DNA from: Argiope bruennichi
Taxonomy: Eukaryota
Direction of reading: 5' to 3'
Length of the DNA stretch: 64,000 nt
NCBI RefSeq assembly: GCF_947563725.1
Contig: NC_079159.1
Coordinates: 100,177,559-100,241,558 of the forward strand
Both the position numbers and the translations under genes were made by a program. Every line of letters starts with the position of its first letter. Position 1 is the first letter of the stretch. Below the pieces are notes generated by a model. It did not search any database. It was not told the origin of the DNA and was given only the letters and a program-made list of their open reading frames with translations. Of the stretch, positions 15,184 through 60,786 are shown piece by piece.

Positions 15184-15727
15184 CAGGGTGTCCCAAAAAA
15201 ATTTATACACATTTTAGCAGCTGATAACTAAGTTATTTCTTCTTTCTTTACTGACTGAACCCATTGAACCGAGTGATGGCAGACAGACTTGAATTTGAAG
15301 AAAGGAAATTTATTCTAAAATGCTACTGGAAGTATGAAAATGCAGTAGAAGTGCAAAGACAATTTAAGAGGGAGTTTAACAAAGAACCACCTACACGAGT
15401 TACTATCACTCGAATTAGAGCTAAGTTTGAAGCTGATGGAACTGTTCAGGACGTCCATAAACCTGCAACAGTTGTTCAATTGAGGGCAACCATTGAACAT
15501 GAATGTACGAATATCCCAAGGGAATTGTTCCATCATGTGTGCTATTCCATCGCTTCGCGTTGTCAGCAGTGTCTGGAGCAGAGCGGACATCAGTTTGAGA
15601 ACATGCGATAACAAGACAATAGAATGATATTTGTAGAATCTTTTACATGCTGAAAATTATTCGAATTATAATAAACCCCAAATTTACAATTATTTAAAGT
15701 GTGTATACTTTTTTTTGGGACACCCTG
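15184..15727 (+). mobile_element. MITE-like internal-deletion derivative of the same maT-like family (perfect 28-bp TIRs, TA TSD)
   Basis: The 5-prime TIR is ACAGGGTGTCCCAAAAAAATTTATACAC (15184-). The 3-prime end is GTGTATACTTTTTTTTGGGACACCCTGT (to 15727), which is its reverse complement with one extra A. TA is at 15182-15183 and at 15728-15729. The 544-bp element carries one 115-aa ORF. Confidence 0.85.
15264..15611 (+). CDS. Truncated transposase ORF: N-terminal DUF4817-type HTH fused in frame to the transposase C-terminal tail (DDE core deleted)
   Basis: MNRVMADRLEFEERKFILKCYWKYENAVEVQRQFKREFNKEPPTRVTITRIRAKFEADGTV... matches the HTH of the 12617 pseudogene. ...NIPRELFHHVCYSIASRCQQCLEQSGHQFENMR matches its C-terminal ITEQEL...CIGIEGKQFEQVM tail. 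Confidence 0.6.
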   Translation: MNRVMADRLEFEERKFILKCYWKYENAVEVQRQFKREFNKEPPTRVTITRIRAKFEADGTVQDVHKPATVVQLRATIEHECTNIPRELFHHVCYSIASRCQQCLEQSGHQFENMR

Positions 15728-16540
15728 TATATATATTTATTCATTTACTTTTGACAACAAAATCCTTTTTCGACTTTTTAATGCTTTATCTTAGGAAAGT
15801 AATAAATCCATTTCTTTATAGGCATATTAACAGAATATTTACTTTGTATTTGTTAACAGCTGATGTAGTTGTTACAGTGTTAAACTATTAGACAATACAG
15901 CCTCAATCTCGAGGAATTCGTCACTCTGTCCTTTACTCTTCTATTGAAAATGTTTGCCTGTCTTATAATAAACGTTTTCAGTAAAATAAATTTATTACTA
16001 ATGAAGGAAAACAAAAGATCCCAAATTTAGCCTTTTAATGATATGAAGAAGATTTTCTTTCCCTTAAAATCCTCATTTCGAAAGTTTATTTTCAGATCTT
16101 TTCTTACATAATGTAAAAGCCGAGTGTATTATATTTTTGTGCGAATTCTTCGATTGAAATTCCCATCAGCAACTCGTATTTTGCGTTAAAAGAAGAAATG
16201 TTGAAATGTATCTACTTCTAAGCATCGTTTTTTTTTTTTTGAGTGAGAGAGAGAGAGAGCTGAATATGCTGTGGAAAAATTATAAAATAGATTCTTTTTT
16301 TAGCTCAACAAACGCGGTGTCCCTCGAATGAAGTATGGTCGTATCCTGTCGATGGCTGCAATACATGCTTACCAGAACCGTTTTGTGAAACAAGACAAGA
16401 ATTTGGCTGTAACTGCAGAAGCGGATACACAAGAGAGATCTTCACTGGATTCTGCATTTCGAGAGCTCTTTGTCCACGTAAGTAGTTTATCATTAGTTTG
16501 CCATAACCAGAGCTCTAAAAAAAAGTTATTAACTATCTCT

Positions 16541-16938
16541 TTATGTAATCTCTGGCCATTTTGGATTACATGTGAACGTGATAAATAAACATGGTCGTCC
16601 ATATTCGCGCACGAAAGTCAGAGCATCCTGTATATATTCTTGCATATGACGTGGACTGCCTACGTACGATGATGGTAAAATGACATGGTTACCAATTTCG
16701 GCGACGTCGGCGTTGTTGTTGGTAGCGTCTCGCAAATGAATGTACTCTTCCGCGCGCAGCTTTTGTTGATTATATCGTAAGTATCGTAGTCGTTCGCTCT
16801 CAATCTTCGCGTACATGTCGACCATGAATTGTTGACAAAGCTCACGACATCGTAAAATGACGTTGTCCAGGCCACGTCTAATCATTAATCGGTACGCATA
16901 ATAATCCTTTGAGCTAACGTTCTTGTTTGTTTCAGCTC
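16541..16938 (-). CDS. Helitron Rep protein, exon 2 (Helitron_like_N core ending FITFTCNPKWPEIT)
   Basis: See the exon 1 and intron evidence. A stop follows PEIT. Downstream sequence (16305-16493, another frame) is degenerate. Confidence 0.6.
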
Positions 16939-17039
16939 CTGTAATATTTGTTCATAAAAATTAATTTAAATTTATTACGTTCAATAATTTAATTGTTTTG
17001 TTAAATGATTAATGATCAAATTAATAATGAATGAAGTAC
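16939..17039 (-). other. Predicted 101-bp intron in the Helitron Rep gene
   Basis: On the minus strand the donor is ATCAG|GTACTTCATTC and the acceptor is ...TTTTTATGAACAAATATTACAG|GAGCTG.
Splicing joins ...RDPVS-G-AETNKNVSSKDYYAYRLMIRRGLDNVIL... in frame.
This restores a continuous Helitron_like_N domain across ORFs 16981-18189 and 16541-16885. Confidence 0.5.
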
Positions 17040-18189
17040 CTGATACGGGATCTCGTTGTTTTATGTTTATGCAATATCCGTCTTGTCCTTTCCAGAATAT
17101 TAGCGGATATTGGAGAGCGTCATATGAACGATGTGTGTCAGCAATGAACTGAAGATTATTATTTCTTCTACGAATCAGAATTTCTCGTGCAGCTGTACAA
17201 TCGCCAACCATGATTCCAGCAACATCATCAACAACGGGTGCATTGAATCTACGAATATGCTCTCCAGCTGGTGTTTTATCAGGATTAATGACGATAGCGT
17301 GATTATCGCTTTGTAATTGGTGCATATGTGATTTGAATATTTTCAACAACTCGTTGTGCTCGTTCAAAAGAGCATCTAGCTCGCTGACGATGCGCCTGGC
17401 ATAAAGTGAATCAAGGTTATTATAATCACAACGTGCATTCACGCGATTGGCAAGTGCGCTTCCGGAATCCTCGCCGCCCATAAAGTAGATTTGTAAGAAT
17501 TTATGTGGTTCGTTTGGCATTGGCAGCAGTGAGCCCATTTTATGATAAACTTGGCTTCTGATTTTGAATGTAGAATTGAATTGTTGACCATTTGCATTAG
17601 TATTTCGAACTATTTCTGTTGCTCCGAACGATGTCATTTGAAAGCATGAATTGAATCTTCGAATTGACTTCAGGAACACGTTAGAATCTGGATCCGTGCC
17701 GATAAGTAAGCCGTTCAATGGTTCAGGTGGTGTTTCAATTTCAGGTAGTTGCACTTTTCCTGACGCGCAACACATCCCAGCTGGCTCATTTTTGAATTTC
17801 AGAGCATGACAATGCGGACATTCCTTGTCCATAGCACCAATTACCACTTTTGAATGAGCATAATATTCAATATCGGGCTCATACTGGAATGCTAGACGCA
17901 GGAATGAATCAGATATAAATGCTCGATGTACCTGCTGTCGTTGTTGGTCATTTGTTCTTCGTCTATTGACTGTGAAACGGCGTGATTGTCGTTGTTCTAA
18001 TCTTCTGCCTTCATTGCGTTCAGCTCGTGTATCTTCTGGCTCTTCTTGATGCAATTGCGCCATTCTGACACGTGCATCAGTATTTTGTTGCTGGATTTGT
18101 TCTTCTGTTCTTTCGGATCTGCTATTTCGCAAGTTTCGAGCTTTACTTGTACTGCGGCTCAAATCAGCCCCTTTGCGTTTTCTTGGCAT
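17040..18189 (-). CDS. Helitron Rep protein, exon 1 (N-terminal zinc-finger-like region and start of the Rep domain)
   Basis: A 402-aa ORF starts with Met at 18189. A predicted splice donor, DPVS then G|GTACTT, lies at 17040/17039 on the minus strand. Confidence 0.65.
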
Positions 18190-22683: not shown

Positions 22684-22817
<134 letters not shown>

Positions 22818-22945
22818 GCAATTAAACAGTATTCCAAATTTCAGAAATTATCAGTGATGCACTCTTGGCTTTGTTATCCAATGACTACTCTCCCTTTTCG
22901 AGGAATTCCGTTCATCACAAAATCATTTTTCTAACGTTTAATTTG

Positions 22946-23167
22946 CTACTTCATTAAAGCATCCTCCTTTGTATCTGTGTCAAAATATTCTTTGGGATCG
23001 ATGCACTTTTCATCAAGTCCCCTGACGAGTCCCTCTTCGCACACGCAACCTGGAACACAAATCCGGGTGCAAGGCAAAGGTTTCATCCAATTGGTGCAGT
23101 TTTTCTGATAGTGCGCTCGCTCTACAGGGGTCGAAACGTTCTTTGGGTGGACATCCCGCTTGATCAA
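22946..23167 (-). CDS. TIL-domain (trypsin-inhibitor-like cysteine-rich) exon, paralog 1, probably degenerate
   Basis: The translation is LIKRDVHPKNVSTPVERAHYQKNCTNWMKPLPCTRICVPGCVCEEGLVRGLDEKCIDPKEY.... It has the TIL signature ...C-x3-C-x3-C-x-C-x3-[FL]VR-x5-C-[IV]. Aligned to paralog 2, the C1, C2 and C3 positions are H, R and Y. The exon is preceded on the minus strand by a poly-T tract followed by CAG (acceptor-like) at 23168-23190. The M in the ORF track is really a TTG codon. Confidence 0.55.
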   Translation of the reverse strand: MIKRDVHPKNVSTPVERAHYQKNCTNWMKPLPCTRICVPGCVCEEGLVRGLDEKCIDPKEYFDTDTKEDALMK

Positions 23168-24408: not shown

Positions 24409-24687
24409 TTAAAATTTGTTTTTCTCGGTACCTCGAATGTTTTGTAGATGGAGATGAATGAACTCGCTATTGGATAGACCTGTTCCCGAAGATCTTTTTA
24501 ATGAATATTTTTGCGGCGAAATGCAGTTGTTTTCGGGTCCTCTGACCTTCCCTTTTCTACAGACACAACCGAAGACGCAGATTTTTGAGCATAGCATGAC
24601 AGTATCTTTGTAATTGGAGCAATTTCTTAGACAGTGAGCATGGCATTCGCTCATCTCTTCACCGGCCGGGCAATCTGTATTCGCTGT
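24409..24687 (-). CDS. TIL-domain exon, paralog 2 (most complete N-terminal half)
   Basis: The translation is TANTDCPAGEEMSECHAHCLRNCSNYKDTVMLCSKICVFGCVCRKGKVRGPENNCISPQKY.... The cysteine spacing C-x8-C-x3-C-x3-C-x9-C-x3-C-x3-C-x-C-x11-C-I fits the TIL fold for C1-C9. The tenth cysteine is absent. An acceptor-like CTCTTTATTTCGAG|ACA lies on the minus strand at 24688-24700. The ORF is also open up to a Met at 24816, so a single-exon reading cannot be excluded. Confidence 0.6.
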   Translation of the reverse strand, partial: TANTDCPAGEEMSECHAHCLRNCSNYKDTVMLCSKICVFGCVCRKGKVRGPENNCISPQKYSLKRSSGTGLSNSEFIHLHLQNIRGTEKNKF

Positions 24688-25210: not shown

Positions 25211-25448
25211 TTAAAATCCCCTCATTCTTCGAATTTCTTCCATACTTGGAATTGAAATTTTATTTTCCGAACCATGGCAGTTTTTCTTTTTTATGCATTT
25301 GGTATTGTGCCCCCGGACGAATCCGCTGTCGCAGACGCACCCAGGAACACAGAAAAAGGGCAGACGACCGACTTGTTGAGGTCGCCGCAGTTTCTTTGGC
25401 AGCGTGCTGAGCAAGGTGCGAAGTGCTCATTCAGTGTACAACGAAGAC
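25211..25448 (-). pseudogene. TIL-domain exon, paralog 3, with an apparent 1-bp frameshift in an A5/T5 homopolymer
   Basis: One frame gives LRCTLNEHFAPCSARCQRNCGDLNKSVVCP. The +1 frame gives FFCVPGCVCDSGFVRGHNTKCIKKKNC. Together they make a complete 10-Cys TIL domain only if one T is added in the run CCCTTTTTC (plus-strand GAAAAAGGG at about 25343-25351). An acceptor-like pyrimidine tract followed by CCTAAG| lies at 25449-25475 on the minus strand. Confidence 0.55.
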
Positions 25449-26924
25449 CTTAGGAATGAAAATAATAATAATAATAATAATAATAATTTAAAAACATTAC
25501 AACCTTTTTCTATACCCCGTAAAGCACCTGAAAATGAATATGAATTTAAGAAAAAACTATAACACTTAATTTGAGAAAAATTAAAACCACCATTAGGTTT
25601 ACAATTGCAATTCTAAACTTCCAACTGATACTTGGGGACTACAAGGGATATGTATCATTGTTTTTAAGGTGTACGTACACACTAGAAGAATTTTTTTTTA
25701 AATTTTAACTTTAAAAATCCCTTTTTTTTCACAGTAGGTCATTAATATATGTTTAAACTCATTTTAGTGAGAAAAAACCATATTACACTAATTATTCATT
25801 AATTAAATAATATTTAATGAGCTAATTAGCATATTTTTTGAAACATGATATTTTAAATTCTAATTTGTACAGACACACAATTCTAGTTGGAAATTATGCC
25901 TAATATTAGTCTTCATGTTGTCTGCCTCAATCAAGTTATAAAAATACATAGTTTTTTTTAACGATTTTTTCATCACCGATGAATAGAAAAAGCGAGATTT
26001 TTTGTGTAATTTTAACTTTTAAATAGCTATCAAAAATTTATTTCTATGAATATAACTTTGATTGAAGCACAAAACATCCGCTATTTCATACAGATTATTT
26101 TGATATATAAATAATTGTATTTTGTTAATTTATTGTTGCGTTATGATTGTTTGAATGAAGCAACATAGTGGGAAAATATCATTTTTAATAAAATGAGTTG
26201 TTTTAAAAAAATCGTAACTAGAGTTTTTAATGAAAGCTCCTCAAGAAAAATAATTATAACTCGAGAAATATTTCGAATATTGACAACATCTTGGTATCGT
26301 TTGAAAGCTAAAGGATCAGAGAACATTATTAAGCAATAAAAAAAAATCGATATTTTGAACGATTTTCGAAGTTTCAAGTGTGTACATACACCTTAATTTA
26401 AACAAGCTCATGTGTGTATCTGATTCAACCCTATTATTCTTAATTTAAAGTATTTGTTATAATGGTTATTAACTGTGTAAAGCTAAAACATTCAACTTTT
26501 TTCATAAAATTGGTAGAATCAATTCTGGTTTTATAATAATGACCTGGTGTGTTTATAAGAAAGAACTGAGAGAAGAATAATCAAAGCATATAACATAAAT
26601 TTATATTTATTTTCTCTTATAATTTCCTTCGATACCTTTCATAATTACAATCCATGCTGTAGTTAACAGCAGACATAATCCTTAACATCAGTCATACAAA
26701 ATGTTATAAATTCTTATCGAATACTTGTACAAATTTTCGAAATATTATTTATATTTTCAGGGGCTTGAATTATAATTAACATTCTTTTCTAATTTTTAAA
26801 ATTACGTACAGCAATGTGGTCTGTAACAGTGAAACATTTCATTAATAGAACAGCAATTGAATTTTCATGTGTAAATGCGTAGTCTTAGATTCGGTTCAGA
26901 TAATCAATGAATGATCAGTTGATG

Positions 26925-42738: not shown

Positions 42739-42844
<106 letters not shown>

Positions 42845-45800
42845 TTATTATAAGTACAATTAATACCTGTTTAATCCTCAAAGGCAAATCCAATATCTCC
42901 GCTCTGTTTTCTCGCAGAAAGTGGAAGAAAAGGTAGATATTTTTGTCGATTATTATACTTTATTCACAAAAGTTTAAAAAAAAATTATAAGTTCTTTAAT
43001 CAAAATAGCAAATTTATTGTTTTGGGAGCTTTTCCTTGAAAATTTGAAGCATCGTTTTTATGCGAAACGTAAAGAACTTGAATAAGAATATTAAATTTTG
43101 CGATATCAGTAATGTCGGGCAGCTCGCATTTCAAGAAGTTTTCTGCTGTCATCTTTTTCAATCTTATATTCTGGTGTCTTTTGTAAAACGGCAACCTACA
43201 CTGTTGCTTCTAAATATGAAATTGTATATATATATATATATATTGCGTAAAATTTGATACAGCGAAATCCATTTGGAGTAGATATAAATGTGTACAAACG
43301 GCTCGTGATCGTCCGAGTTTCATGCATGATTTTTGATTTTTTCATATTTAATGTTATTTTGTATTCAGAACTTTTATTTGCTGTCTTTGTTTCATGTAAA
43401 TTATGCATAAGAATTCGCATTTAAAAATATTTACCCAAAATCAAATGCATTTGTACTGATATAATTCGTCATTTCAGGCATGGAAAATTTCAAGTTGGCC
43501 CATTTTCCGTTCGCTCATCATCGCACAGTTACAAGTTCATCTCTTCGCAAATGTAAGTGTTATTCCAGTTTTATTTTTTGCAAAGAAAATTTTTCTTGAA
43601 GAATTTGGTCAAATGCAATTTCTGTTTTCTTAACGAAACGCAATTTTTCAAATATATTTGGTTATTTAATAAAACAATGTTGTCCGCTATGGTTCAGCAA
43701 GAAGAGAATTGTTTTAAAGCAGGGTACTGAAATAATTAATTTATCAAGAGGAAGTTTAGGCTATTGGCTTTTTTTCCGGTAGGTTTTTTATGCGAGACCA
43801 GAAGTAATTAATATTAAGTTTCGATAGTTTATTGGTTGGATAAATTTTTTTGGATGGAAGGGTAGCAGCTTCTTGATCCGAAATTCGTTATTGTTTTGAA
43901 ATATCACTTTTCTGTGTGGCCTCGTTAGTCAAATCTAGTCATCAATTAAATTGTTCTGTGAATATACCATGCACAGTTTTGAACTGACTTGTTAACATGG
44001 AGTATAACAATTTCCATTGACTACTTTTCATAATGATGCGCTCTCTCAGCTATAATCCTTTGAATTTGAATCATAATTCGGAATGCAGTAAATAAGCCAG
44101 TGTTTCCTTCGTACAGACAATATAAAACAGTCTTTTCAGTTTTCTTCATAAGAGTCTGCATCTTCCAAACGTAGACGAAAGTTAGGGAGGGCGGCTGCGG
44201 GACTTCGAAGATCATGGCAAAGCCAGTAAGCAGGAATGAAAACGACATCCGTATGTAACGACAAAATATACCACATTTTGTATTTCGTAGTGAAATTTGC
44301 AAAACGAATATGAATCATGGTTGTTTTCTTTTCGTTCAATTGCATGAATCTTTTTTTGGTAAATAATTTTATTATCTTTTTAAAAATTATTCTATGGATC
44401 ACGTCACGAGATGGATTTATATTTGATATATTTCGTTTAAAATTTAGTAAATCTACAAATTTGTTTGGCCATGTACCAAAGTTTAGCCATTTTGTTCAAT
44501 GCGTTTTCGAATTAGCGTGCACAGGTTGAAAAGTAATTCTAAAAATGTATTTTTTGAACTCTGAGACAAGAATTTCGATGTCGAATTTTTTGACAAAATA
44601 TTTTTACTGAATATGCTACATAAATGTATTTATTATAAAGAAGAAGAAAAATGCGAATTCGTTAATTTGAAAAAGTTCGTCAAATCTCACCGACGATGAA
44701 GCTGCCACAGCAAATGTGCCTGTAACTTTGCTTTGCAAAGCGCGAACGCGTTTCCATAAATTTGAATAGGTTTTTAAAGATCGAAAGGCAGCGGATTAAA
44801 AATTTTGAATCTATGACTATTCGGCGCGAAATTCTCTGGATCACTAGTTGACGCCAAATCGGTAAAAGGCCGCCAAAACCAGTTGTGACTTAGAAAAGAG
44901 GGGGGGTGGATCATTATTTTGGGATGCAATGAGTAAGAAATTTGATATTTTGATGGGATTAGTGAAGCTGCTTGTAGATTAGCTACACAGACATAAAGCA
45001 GTGGAAATCTGTGTACATTTTTTTCACACTTTCAAATTTAAACGAACGATTTGTCTGAAAAGAAAGGAATTTATATATCGTATACTGTAAATTCTTTTAA
45101 TTTTTTTTAAAGTTAATTTCCAGGTAGGAACTATCAGTATATTTTGAATATAAAGACGAATTGATTATTATATCTCAAATGATGCAATCCGTTTATAGTC
45201 AGGAAAGTGTAAGCACACACTTTCATTTTTTTTATCCGATATGTGTGGAAATTTTAATTGCTTTTTCATATGTTTTAATATTTGTTTTTAGCGTGACATA
45301 TTCAGTTTTTATAATTTTAAAATTAGTTATTTATACGGTGGGGATGACAAAAGTCTATTTTCTCACAATTCCAAATGACAATGTCTGTTGTATTTAGCTT
45401 TCTAGTATCTTCGCGAACCGTGGTATTAATTTAATAAATAAAAATAGAATCTTTTGTATATGTTTTGTTTAATACTTATCAATATGTTTAGTTCAGAAAA
45501 TTTTGAATTCTGATAGAATAACATTTTTGAAGGGAAACCTAAATGCAGTAGAACATCTAGAATTTGTCTGATATGATTTTAATATTAGTTGGATTTTTTT
45601 TGTAAACAAACCATTTAAGAAATTTCAGAATTAAAATTCATAAAAATTGTATTTTATTGATGTATGTTGAAGGTGGTAAGTATTGATAATATGCTCCTGA
45701 CCCAAATTACCTGAAATATTTGTTGTAAGGTAAGTACTTTGAATTGCTTCATTAGATATGTGTATGTAATGCATTTTTATGACCCTTTGCTTTCCTATGG

Positions 45801-47998: not shown

Positions 47999-49272
47999 GT
48001 ACTTTTTCTTTTTAGAAAATTTTATGAATATTCGTCTTAATACAGTTTACTAGAGTTCTTTTATCAATGAATGTTCATGATTTAGAATAAGTTATTTTTT
48101 ATAATTACCACAGGCATTCTTCTGCGATTATAAAATATTCACTTTTTACAAATAAACTTTCTTTAATTAGTTTTAACGATTCGAATTGCTTTAGTGAACA
48201 AGAAATGTTGTGGAAACGGCGAAAAAAAATACTCTTTATTTACATAATCTTTTTAGAGGAGACGACATACAAATTTAGTGACCCAACAAATAAAGATGAA
48301 ATTTTGGGAAGAAAAATGAATAATTATGATTTATTTAGTTTGCGTTATCAGAATGTGTGCAATTTAATTTTAGTGAGTTTGAATGGCATCGCACGAGTTT
48401 CAAACGATTCTTTGCTGTTAAAGAATATTTTTATGTAATTGACTCTATTTACATTCTCTGAGAAAATAAACATTCTTACGTACGGGGCTGAGAATTGTAA
48501 CGGAAGACTGACGTTTGTACCATGAACATCTCCCCAACAGGGCAGTACCGGATCACAGAATTTTTCTGCATTTACAACACCAGCTTTGTCAGAGGGACTC
48601 ATTTCATGTCAAGAAACCGAATACTGGCCGCTAAGTCCTTAGCATTTCTTGTTTTTTCCGCCTAAACTTTTCATTCCTAATCCCCCATATTGATGTACAG
48701 AAAATGCTTCTACTCTTATCTCTTTTACTACTCTTTTATCTACTCTTAAAAGTTTAGCTCTTGAATACAAGGATACCCTGTATTTGTTGAAATATAGTAA
48801 TCCCTTATCTAGCAGTTTAGTAACTCAGAATAAATTCTTGGAAGGCAATAAAAATCTCCCCTAATTAGCTAAGGGGAAAAAAGAGAAGAAGTAAATGACT
48901 TAATGATACGTCCGTTATACCAAGGATAAAATTTGGTCATACAATTTCGTTAAGAAAAAACAGTGTAACCCATAAAAAGTATGGTAATCCCTAAAATATT
49001 TATCGCTTAAATGAAAGAATAATTAGCTATCGCATCAAAACGATTCAGTCTAGGAGTTTGTTTCATAATTAAAGGCTGAAGCCAGTTTATATAAGTGATA
49101 TCGTGTATGGTTAGCTATGGTGAAAAAGTAACAATAGTGGAAAAATCGGTACAATCATCGGTCAACGCTAGGAAAGTGTACCATCACCGTAAAACTCAAA
49201 ATATGAGGTAATATGGCAAGAAGTAAATGCTATATCGGAAATAAAAACAATTGCGCAATAAAGAGTTAAAAA

Positions 49273-49279
49273 AATATGT

Positions 49280-49340
<61 letters not shown>
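49273..49340. repeat. (CA)n microsatellite, about 33 units
   Basis: Read directly. Confidence 0.95.
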
Positions 49341-59324: not shown

Positions 59325-60041
59325 AAAGCTTAAAATTAAAAAAGCTGCAGAGCTCGAAATTTAAAAAAAATGCTAGAGAGCTCGAAATTTAAAAAAAATG
59401 CTAGAGAGCTCGAAATTAAAAAAAAAATGCTAGAGAACTTGAAATTAAAAAAAAAAAAAAAATGCTGGAGAGCTCGAAATTAAAAAAAAATGCTAGAGAA
59501 CTTGAAATTAAAAAAAAAAAAAAATGCTGGAGAGCTCGAAATTAAAAAAAAATGCTAGAGAGCTCGAAATTAAAAAAAAAAATGCTAGAGAGCTCGAAAT
59601 TAAAAAAAAAAATGCTAGAGAGTTCGAAATTAAAAAAAAAAAATGCTAGAGAGCTCGAAATTAAAAAAAAAAATGCTAGAGAGCTCGAAATTAAAAAAAA
59701 AATGCTAGAAAGCTCGAAATTAAAAAAAAAAATGCTAGAGAGCTCGAAATTAAAAAAAAAAATGCTAGAGAGCTCGAAATTAAAAAAAAAATGCTAGAGA
59801 GCTCGAAATTAAAAAAAAAATGCTGGAAAGCTCGAAATTAAAAAAAAAAAATGCTGGAGAGCTCGAAATTAAAAAAAAAAATGCTGGAGAGCTCGAAATT
59901 AAAAAAAAAATGCTGGAGAGCTCGAAATTAAAAAAAAAAATGCTGGAGAGCTCGAAATTAAAAAAAAAAAAAAAAATGCTGGAGAGCTCGAAATTAAAAA
60001 AAAAAATGCTAGAGAGCTCGAAATTAAAAAAAAAAAAAGCT
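59325..60041. repeat. Minisatellite: about 24-25 tandem units of a 19-bp core, TGCT(A/G)GAGAGCTCGAAATT, each followed by a variable poly(A) of 8-17 nt (period about 27-36 bp)
   Basis: Read directly. Core variants are GCTAGAGAGCTC, GCTGGAGAGCTC, GCTAGAGAACTTG, GCTAGAGAGTTC and GCTGGAAAGCTC. The GCTGG variants cluster at the 3-prime end (59820-59995). A 2-unit higher-order repeat (AACTTG unit with A15, then GCTGG unit with A9) occurs twice at 59437-59545. The ORFs 59552-59797, 59820-60107 (MLESSKLKKK...) and 59780-60058 are artefacts of the array. Confidence 0.95.
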
Positions 60042-60786
60042 GTGCTTAGTATTTGCATTAAAATATTTCAGAAACGTTCAAATTTACTGCAAGCATTCAT
60101 TTTGTAATATTTTTAAAGTGTTACTTCAAAAAAAGCATTGCGCTCAAAATCATGTTTTAAAATTGAACGATATGCATTGTGTTTAAAGACTATTTTCTTT
60201 CTATATTCCATTTGTATCGCATTTACATACTTTAGATATTTTAAGAGTATTTGAAATGTTAATTATACATTTCAATTACAAACGTAAATATGTTAAAAAA
60301 TGATTTTTAAAATATTTTTTGAATTTTAAAAGCTTTTGAATTGTTGTTTAAAATTTTTAGTACAAATTATATATATATTAATGCAATAAATCTGCATTAG
60401 CTGACACTAGCGTTTGTCAAAATATATCTTCAATAATTTTAAAATTTGATGCATTTAAAATATGAATACTACTTTTTTTCGAAAACTGCAACATCATAAA
60501 TTATTTGATGGCTTGAAAAATGTTACAAAATACACTGGACAGTGACTGCTGATGTAGTCCATGCACTGTATTAAAATACTTTGTAATTAGTGTCGGAACT
60601 ATTTGAAAACTGAATGCCTGCTGCTCAAGAACTAAAAAGACTTAATACTGTGTACACTGTCACTTCAAACTTTTTACTAGAACCTTTTATCGAGATTTAC
60701 TTGGTGTGCTAATCGAACTGAAACAACTGGCAGATAAGGCCCTGGACTAAAAAATGCCCTTCGTAACCCATTAGTGACGAATATTA

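What the first reader, a model, noticed from the sequence alone, without database searches (positions are those of the whole stretch)
25300..25448. TIL paralog 3: a complete 10-Cys domain exists only across a +1 frameshift inside a T5 (plus-strand A5) homopolymer
The upstream frame reads CTLNEHFAPCSARCQRNCGDLNKSVVCP. The downstream frame reads FFCVPGCVCDSGFVRGHNTKCIKKKNC. Inserting one T in the run CCCTTTTTC would give ...VVCPFFCVPGCVC... with canonical C5-x3-C6 spacing, and this is the only copy retaining C10. Either this is a very recent pseudogenisation, or it is a homopolymer indel error in the assembly. If it is an assembly error, this is the intact functional member of the cluster.
Basis: seen in the sequence. 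Interest (0 to 1): 0.6.

Follow-up and report, generated by a model that had tools for sequence, protein, structure and literature searches.

The report
Frameshifted protease-inhibitor exon in decaying spider gene
The split cysteine-rich domain is real, but it is one exon of a multi-domain spider protease-inhibitor gene that carries several other disabling mutations in this genome, so it is most likely an ordinary decaying pseudogene and not a hidden intact gene.

Summary
On the minus strand a full 10-Cys TIL (trypsin-inhibitor-like) domain can be read only by changing frame at a T5 run. The coordinates are slightly off: Cys1-Cys10 span 25440-25277 and the run is at 25353-25357.

The window is spider DNA, collinear at about 90% identity with Argiope bruennichi chromosome CM027190.1. 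The three "paralogs" are three consecutive phase-1/phase-1 exons of one multi-TIL gene. Its orthologues are A. bruennichi "serine protease inhibitor swm-1 like", a Larinioides protein and a Trichonephila protein.

In A. bruennichi this exon is intact and reads CCTTTTGTCTGTG (Cys-Pro-Phe-Val-Cys). The window reads CCTTTT-TCTGTG, so the missing base is the G of a conserved Val codon in the reactive-site loop. The T5 run was made by that deletion. It is not a shortened T6.

The same gene in the window also has:
- a 4-nt tandem duplication in exon P1;
- three Cys-to-Tyr changes;
- a GT-to-GC splice donor;
- no detectable upstream domain exon;
- 16 versus 6 lineage-specific amino-acid replacements.

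Best reading: a real lineage-specific pseudogene (about 0.8). An assembly error is not excluded (about 0.12). This is ordinary and of low interest.

The parts
25246..25448 (-). Exon P3 of the multi-TIL gene. It is 203 nt here and 204 nt in A. bruennichi. Acceptor AG at 25450-25449, donor GT at 25245-25244, phase 1 at both ends.
   Evidence: The splice junctions were checked by splicing the A. bruennichi exons, which reproduces the annotated protein P0030 exactly.
25277..25440 (-). TIL domain P3, from Cys1 (25440-25438) to Cys10 (25279-25277). Cys1-5 lie in one frame and Cys6-10 in the frame shifted by one base.
25353..25357 (-). T5 run (plus-strand A5) holding the frameshift. Relative to the orthologue, one G is missing between 25354 and 25353, inside the Val codon of the Cys5-Pro-Phe-Val-Cys6 reactive-site loop.
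   Evidence: window CCTTTT-TCTGTG against A. bruennichi CCTTTTGTCTGTG, G at L001 23383. Val is also present in Larinioides and Trichonephila clavata.
25291..25293 (-). Premature TAA stop reached in the unrepaired upstream frame.
24468..24683 (-). Exon P2 (216 nt, open frame). Cys10 is changed TGT to TAT (Tyr) at 24507-24505. The donor at 24467-24466 is GC where A. bruennichi has GT.
22946..23167 (-). Terminal exon P1 (222 nt against 218 nt in A. bruennichi). It has a 4-nt tandem duplication GAGC|GAGC at 23122-23115 that shifts the frame, Cys3 to Tyr at 23110-23108, Cys10 to Tyr at 22987-22985, and the stop TAG at 22948-22946.

Best explanation
The feature is exon P3 of the orthologue of a conserved orb-weaver (Araneidae) gene for a secreted protein made of tandem TIL / Ascaris-type serine-protease-inhibitor domains.

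The gene layout is a signal peptide, an atypical domain P4, then P3, P2 and P1, with each domain on its own phase-1/phase-1 exon. In the intact protein each domain would present a canonical inhibitory loop between Cys5 and Cys6. The P1 residue is Phe in P3, and Lys or Arg in P2 and P1. That would make it a compound chymotrypsin-type and trypsin-type inhibitor.

In the genome of this window the gene is a decaying unitary pseudogene. A 1-bp deletion removed the G of the Val codon in the P3 reactive-site loop. This created the T5 run and leads to a stop 20 codons later. It is one of at least five or six disabling changes in the gene.

What is shown here: orthology and synteny, exon structure, the identity of the missing base, and the other lesions. 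What is inferred: that the deletion exists in the animal and not only in the assembly, that the locus is not expressed as a functional inhibitor, and the inhibitor specificities.
For: Organism and synteny:
- An exhaustive HMMER search found P0030, with 54% identity overall and about 90% over P3. It is encoded on GCA_015342795.1 CM027190.1, which is A. bruennichi, and is named 'Serine protease inhibitor swm-1 like protein'.
- Window 18.9-28.2 kb is collinear with that locus at 83-91% nucleotide identity.

One gene, not three:
- The Larinioides protein P0151 carries P4-P3-P2-P1 in one chain, with 10 Cys in each of P3, P2 and P1. T. clavata P0152 adds a signal peptide.
- Exon lengths in A. bruennichi are 204, 215 and 218 nt. 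Splicing them reproduces the C-terminus of P0030 exactly.

The lesion:
- The missing base is G. Val is conserved in three orthologues.

Other lesions in the same gene:
- A 4-nt tandem duplication, three Cys-to-Tyr changes and a GT-to-GC donor.
- The P4 exon and everything upstream of L001 16349 have no homologue anywhere in the 64-kb window.

Rates:
- With Larinioides as outgroup, there are 16 replacements on the window lineage and 6 on the A. bruennichi lineage (binomial p = 0.052). For P3 alone the counts are 5 and 1.
- dN/dS is 0.49.
- Exons differ by 7.2% and flanking non-coding DNA by 10.0%. Non-coding DNA shows 10.4 indel events per kb between the two species, so a neutrally evolving 203-nt exon is expected to collect about one indel per lineage.

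Family:
- Pfam TIL.
- PDB relatives are the small TIL inhibitors LL-TIL, AMCI (1ccv), NAPc2 and BSTI.
- The disulfide map and the position of the reactive loop between Cys V and Cys VI come from PMC3606364.
Against: - No read-level or transcript data for the window species could be reached, so an assembly deletion at this base is not excluded.
- All ten Cys codons of P3 are still intact, with only synonymous TGC/TGT differences at three of them, and dN/dS for P3 is 0.40. P3 is therefore the best-preserved exon and was constrained for much of the time since the split.
- The 16-versus-6 asymmetry is only borderline significant, and fast evolution is normal for secreted inhibitors.
- Absence of the 5' exons from the window could reflect an insertion of more than 36 kb and not a loss.
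- The A. bruennichi reference itself has a frameshift in P2, so 'intact in the relative' holds exon by exon, not for the whole annotated gene.
Confidence: 0.8

Rival explanations
1. Assembly indel error. The real genome has 204 nt in exon P3, with either TTTTGTC as in the orthologue or TTTTTTC. P3 would then be an intact 10-Cys inhibitor domain, possibly still expressed.
For: - The lesion sits in or next to a homopolymer, where long-read consensus errors concentrate.
- P3 keeps all 10 Cys and the Phe at P1, and has dN/dS 0.40.
- The related A. bruennichi assembly shows a homopolymer-length frameshift (A4 against A5) in the neighbouring exon, and its authors state that residual errors remain. 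Such artefacts therefore do occur in spider assemblies.
Against: - The missing base is a G and not a T, so this is not a pure run-length miscall.
- Five other lesions in the same gene are of kinds that consensus errors do not produce.
- Only 4 of 14 single-base indels in the flanking non-coding alignment lie in runs of 3 or more bases. That gives no sign of a pervasive homopolymer problem.
- The real neutral indel density, about 5 per kb per lineage, is orders of magnitude above any plausible consensus error rate. The error-rate figure rests on my general knowledge.
- Even with P3 repaired, the transcript would run into a GC donor, a P2 lacking Cys10 and a frameshifted P1.
Confidence: 0.12
2. 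The deletion is real but is a segregating null allele, heterozygous or at low frequency, captured by the reference haplotype. Other individuals or the other haplotype would carry an intact P3.
For: - P3 is the least decayed exon, which fits a young mutation.
- Nothing here tests population frequency.
Against: - The accumulated lesions in P2 and P1, and the excess of replacements, indicate long-standing relaxation of the whole gene. There is then no selection to keep an intact P3 allele.
- The question is not testable with these tools.
Confidence: 0.06
3. The frame is restored during expression by programmed +1 ribosomal frameshifting or transcriptional slippage on the T5/A5 run, so the exon is functional as it stands.
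For: Only the presence of a short homopolymer at the shift site.
Against: - Orthologues encode the domain in a single frame with no run at this site.
- A run of five is short for slippage, and no stimulatory element is evident.
- The rest of the gene is damaged.
Confidence: 0.01

Closest known systems
Argiope bruennichi 'Serine protease inhibitor swm-1 like protein' (P0030; GCA_015342795.1, CM027190.1)
   Same: It is the positional orthologue. The flanks are collinear, the P3-P2-P1 exon order, phases and splice sites match, and the P3 exon is 93% identical in DNA.
   Different: There P3 and P1 are intact 10-Cys domains and P2 keeps Cys10. The only lesion is an A4-versus-A5 frameshift in P2. 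The window copy has the G deletion, the 4-nt duplication, three Cys-to-Tyr changes, a GC donor and no detectable P4 exon.
Larinioides sclopetarius P0151 and Trichonephila clavata P0152 (multi-TIL proteins, the latter annotated 'mucin-19')
   Same: They have the same domain series in one polypeptide. The Cys5-x-x-Val-Cys6 loop is conserved in the P3 equivalent (CPFVC and CPAVC), and Lys or Arg sits at P1 of the later domains.
   Different: They are intact throughout. T. clavata has extra repeated domains and shows the signal peptide, which could not be located in the window.
Single-domain Ascaris-type / TIL inhibitors: AMCI-1 (PDB 1ccv), LL-TIL (8hwu), BSTI (1hx2), NAPc2 (1cou), scorpion SjAPI
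   Same: They share the 10-Cys framework and Pfam family. The reactive loop lies between Cys V and Cys VI.
   Different: Those are short secreted single-domain peptides with demonstrated activity. This is one module of a multi-domain gene and is frameshifted.

Membership tests
TIL domain (Pfam PF01826) / Ascaris-type inhibitor fold | Match to the family profile above the curated cut-off (24.5 bits) | tested here: met
The downstream half alone scores 28.0 bits and the upstream half alone 22.2 bits.
TIL domain (Pfam PF01826) / Ascaris-type inhibitor fold | Ten cysteines with canonical spacing in one continuous reading frame | tested here: not met
   Cys1-5 and Cys6-10 lie in frames one base apart. 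The as-is frame stops at 25293-25291. The feature is met only after adding one base.
Functional secreted TIL protease inhibitor | Intact reactive-site loop between Cys V and Cys VI | tested here: not met
   The deletion falls in the Val codon of Cys-Pro-Phe-Val-Cys. The loop position is taken from PMC3606364.
Functional secreted TIL protease inhibitor | Signal peptide / 5' exons present upstream | tested here: not met
   Neither protein nor DNA searches find a match to the P4 or signal region of the A. bruennichi, Larinioides or T. clavata orthologues upstream of P3 in the window. Synteny ends at window 28216. The exons could lie beyond the window.
Functional secreted TIL protease inhibitor | Protease-inhibiting activity and expression | not testable with these tools
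   No transcript or protein record for this species was found.
Unitary (orthologous) pseudogene | Syntenic orthologue with the corresponding exon intact in a related species | tested here: met
Unitary (orthologous) pseudogene | Multiple independent disabling lesions | tested here: met
   The lesions are a G deletion, a 4-nt duplication, three Cys-to-Tyr changes and a GT-to-GC donor.
Unitary (orthologous) pseudogene | Relaxed constraint on this lineage | tested here: inconclusive
   There are 16 versus 6 polarised replacements (p = 0.052). Pairwise dN/dS is 0.49. Exon divergence is 7.2% against 10.0% for non-coding DNA.
Homopolymer-length assembly artefact | The indel is a pure change in run length relative to orthologues | tested here: not met
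   The orthologue has TTTTGTC, so the absent base is G.
Homopolymer-length assembly artefact | Raw reads disagree with the consensus | not testable with these tools
   No reads or independent assemblies of this species were available.

The most novel reading that the evidence does not exclude
A conserved orb-weaver multi-TIL inhibitor gene is being lost independently within the genus Argiope. The window species carries the G deletion, the duplication and the Cys losses. A. bruennichi carries a different frameshift, in P2, which would have to be real and not an assembly error. That pattern would point to a recent change in the protease or inhibitor requirements of these spiders, for example in venom, silk or digestive fluid.
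Probability: 0.15. Interest if true: 0.3.

Novelty: new member of a known kind. Interest (0 to 1): 0.12.

Why it matters
It matters little beyond annotation. The finding shows that this locus should be annotated as a pseudogene, or at least flagged as low quality, and not rescued as an intact inhibitor. It shows that the three 'paralogs' are exons of one gene. It also flags that the A. bruennichi reference protein for the orthologue has a frameshifted, meaningless C-terminal third. As a method point, an orthologue comparison can separate 'the homopolymer was shortened' from 'a different base was deleted and created the homopolymer'.

Tried and rejected
- A word-indexed protein search with the repaired domain found nothing. 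The exhaustive search was needed.
- DNA for the Larinioides and T. clavata orthologues is not on record, so synonymous changes could not be polarised.
- Exact-product look-ups of four window ORFs found no independent contigs of the window species. There is therefore no read-independent check of the T5.
- Rfam found nothing in the window.
- I considered that removing one A from the A5 run next to the P1 shift would restore its frame. I rejected this because the orthologue alignment shows a 4-nt tandem duplication instead.
- I considered P2's ATG (MDTNIL...) as a separate gene start. I rejected this because there is no signal peptide and the orthologues splice through an acceptor at 24685-24684.
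- I considered the plus-strand TIL-like stretch at 16303-16476 as the displaced P4 exon. It is only 36-39% identical to P4, against about 85-90% for the true orthologous exons, so I treat it as a different gene.
- The -1 shift in P3 and the +4 shift in P1 cancel arithmetically, but stops intervene.

Full report
**1. What is in the sequence**

- Read on the minus strand, 25448-25246 begins right after a CCTAAG acceptor. It encodes LRCTLNEHFAPCSARCQRNCGDLNKSVVCPF, then runs into unrelated residues and a TAA stop at 25293-25291.
- The frame shifted by one base reads PFFCVPGCVCDSGFVRGHNTKCIKKKNCH.
- tblastn with the joined peptide gives two abutting 100%-identity matches in different frames.
- Pfam TIL (PF01826, cut-off 24.5 bits) scores 49.7 bits over the whole 55-position profile for the joined peptide. 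The upstream half alone scores 22.2 bits (profile 1-28) and the downstream half alone 28.0 bits (profile 31-55).
- The coordinates need adjusting. Cys1 is at 25440-25438 and Cys10 at 25279-25277. The T5 run (plus-strand A5) is at 25353-25357.

**2. What organism and what gene**

- The window is 30% G+C, full of microsatellites, and carries Helitron and DUF4817 fragments. It is eukaryotic.
- The word-indexed protein search found nothing.
- The exhaustive HMMER search returned 644 TIL proteins. P0030 stood out at 54% overall identity.
- P0030 is encoded on GCA_015342795.1 CM027190.1. This is the Argiope bruennichi chromosome-level assembly. The protein is named 'Serine protease inhibitor swm-1 like protein'.
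- Window 18.9-28.2 kb is collinear with that locus (L001 16.3-36.2 kb) at 83-91% nucleotide identity.
- The window therefore comes from a close relative of A. bruennichi, probably a congener. The species was not identified.

**3. The 'paralogs' are exons of one gene**

- P0030 contains an atypical TIL (P4), then the P3 equivalent, then P2 and P1.
- The Larinioides sclopetarius protein P0151 has P4-P3-P2-P1 in one chain, with 10 Cys in each of P3, P2 and P1. Trichonephila clavata P0152 starts with a signal peptide followed by P4 and further TIL repeats.
- In A. bruennichi the three exons are 204, 215 and 218 nt. In the window they are 203, 216 and 222 nt.
- All three start with two bases that complete a codon. 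P3 and P2 also end with one extra base, so they are symmetric phase-1 modules.
- Splicing the A. bruennichi exons at these junctions reproduces the C-terminal part of P0030 exactly, which validates the junctions.

**4. The nature of the frameshift**

- In the DNA alignment A. bruennichi reads TGT CCT TTT GTC TGT (Cys-Pro-Phe-Val-Cys). The window reads TGC CCT TTT -TC TGT (the G is at L001 23383).
- Removing that single G from the A. bruennichi sequence gives the window sequence exactly. The T5 run is thus the product of the deletion.
- Val at this position is also present in Larinioides (CPFVC) and T. clavata (CPAVC).
- In Ascaris-type inhibitors the reactive-site loop lies between Cys V and Cys VI, bounded by the II-VI and III-V disulfides (PMC3606364). 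The deletion therefore hits the functional loop.
- From my own knowledge of AMCI-1 and the Ascaris inhibitors, the middle residue of Cys5-x-x-x-Cys6 is the P1 residue. That makes Phe the P1 here and Val the P1'.

**5. The rest of the gene in the window**

- P1 has a 4-nt tandem duplication (GAGC GAGC, 23122-23115) that shifts the frame. It also has Cys3 TGT-to-TAT (23110-23108) and Cys10 TGT-to-TAT (22987-22985).
- P2 has Cys10 TGT-to-TAT (24507-24505). Its donor is GC (24467-24466) where A. bruennichi has a consensus GTGAGT.
- In A. bruennichi, P1 is a complete 10-Cys domain and P2 keeps Cys10.
- A duplication and three substitutions are not the kind of change produced by homopolymer miscalls.
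- No homologue of the P4 exon, or of any of the 16 kb upstream of L001 16349, exists anywhere in the window. This includes the 38 kb upstream of P3. This fits a 5' truncation, although a very large insertion is not excluded.

**6. Rates**

- With Larinioides as outgroup, 16 amino-acid replacements map to the window lineage and 6 to A. bruennichi (p = 0.052).
- In P3 alone the counts are 5 and 1. The P3 changes include loss of the Pro in the VRGP motif that is conserved in the orthologues. The same Pro is also lost in window P1.
- Pairwise dN/dS is 0.49 overall and 0.40 for P3.
- Exons differ by 7.2% and flanking non-coding DNA by 10.0%. Non-coding DNA shows 10.4 indel events per kb.
- A neutrally evolving 203-nt exon is therefore expected to pick up roughly one indel on each lineage. 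One real 1-bp deletion is what decay predicts.
- A consensus error at this exact exon would be a much rarer event (inference; the assembly error-rate figure comes from general knowledge).

**7. Verdict**

- The most likely explanation (about 0.8) is a real 1-bp deletion in an exon of a lineage-specific, already decaying pseudogene of a conserved araneid multi-TIL inhibitor gene.
- P3 is the best-preserved exon. All 10 Cys codons are intact, with synonymous TGC/TGT differences at three of them.
- An assembly error remains possible (about 0.12). It could not be tested, because no independent contigs or proteins of this species are on record.
- Programmed frameshifting is very unlikely.
- This is a known family and a known kind of event, so interest is low.

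**8. Side result**

- The A. bruennichi reference has A4 where the window has A5 in TGC TCA AAA ATC TGC of P2 (L001 25814-25817). This shifts the frame.
- As a result, the last 65 or so residues of the deposited protein P0030 are out-of-frame translation.
- That assembly is 21.8x PacBio assembled with wtdbg2 and polished with 19.8x Illumina. Its authors note residual errors.
- Of the two frameshifts, this is the one that looks like a homopolymer artefact.

Noticed in passing
L001 25814-25817 (A. bruennichi CM027190.1), homologous to window 24582-24586: The A. bruennichi reference has A4 where the window has A5, inside the Cys5-Ser-Lys-Ile-Cys6 loop of exon P2. This frameshifts the exon. The annotated protein P0030 therefore ends in about 65 residues of out-of-frame sequence. 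The cause may be a residual homopolymer error of the PacBio/Pilon assembly or a real lesion.
   Followed up: partly
window 16303-16476 (+): A degenerate TIL-like exon (QQTRCPSNEVW...GCNTC...GCNCRSGYTR...CISRALCP; Pfam TIL 18.6 bits, below the cut-off) lies on the opposite strand. It is 36-39% identical to the atypical P4 domain of the orthologues and shares the CNTC motif. It probably belongs to a convergently oriented neighbouring TIL gene.
   Followed up: partly
window 16541-18189 (-) and 15264-15611 (+): Transposon remains lie next to the plus-strand TIL-like exon. The ORF at 16541-16885 matches Helitron_like_N (113 bits). A 402-aa ORF upstream of it has no Pfam hit. A third ORF matches the DUF4817 helix-turn-helix domain (58.5 bits).
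   Followed up: partly
window 28216 / L001 16349: Collinearity with A. bruennichi stops abruptly here. Nothing in window 28.2-64 kb matches the 16 kb of A. bruennichi sequence that holds the P4 exon and the annotated start. The cause, deletion, rearrangement or a very large insertion, was not resolved.
   Followed up: partly
window 25463-25490 (-): The polypyrimidine tract in front of the P3 acceptor, a T17 run in A. bruennichi, is replaced by an (ATT)n microsatellite in the window. This may weaken the acceptor.
   Followed up: no
window 25353-25357 and 23115-23122: The -1 shift in P3 and the +4 shift in P1 cancel, so the last 54 codons of P1 are back in the original frame of a spliced transcript. 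Stops intervene, so this looks coincidental.
   Followed up: yes
window 22700-22860, 42740-42860, 49270-49340, 59550-60110: The window contains long (AT)n and (GT)n microsatellites and a roughly 30-nt tandem repeat array that creates spurious repetitive ORFs (MLESSKLKKK...).
   Followed up: no
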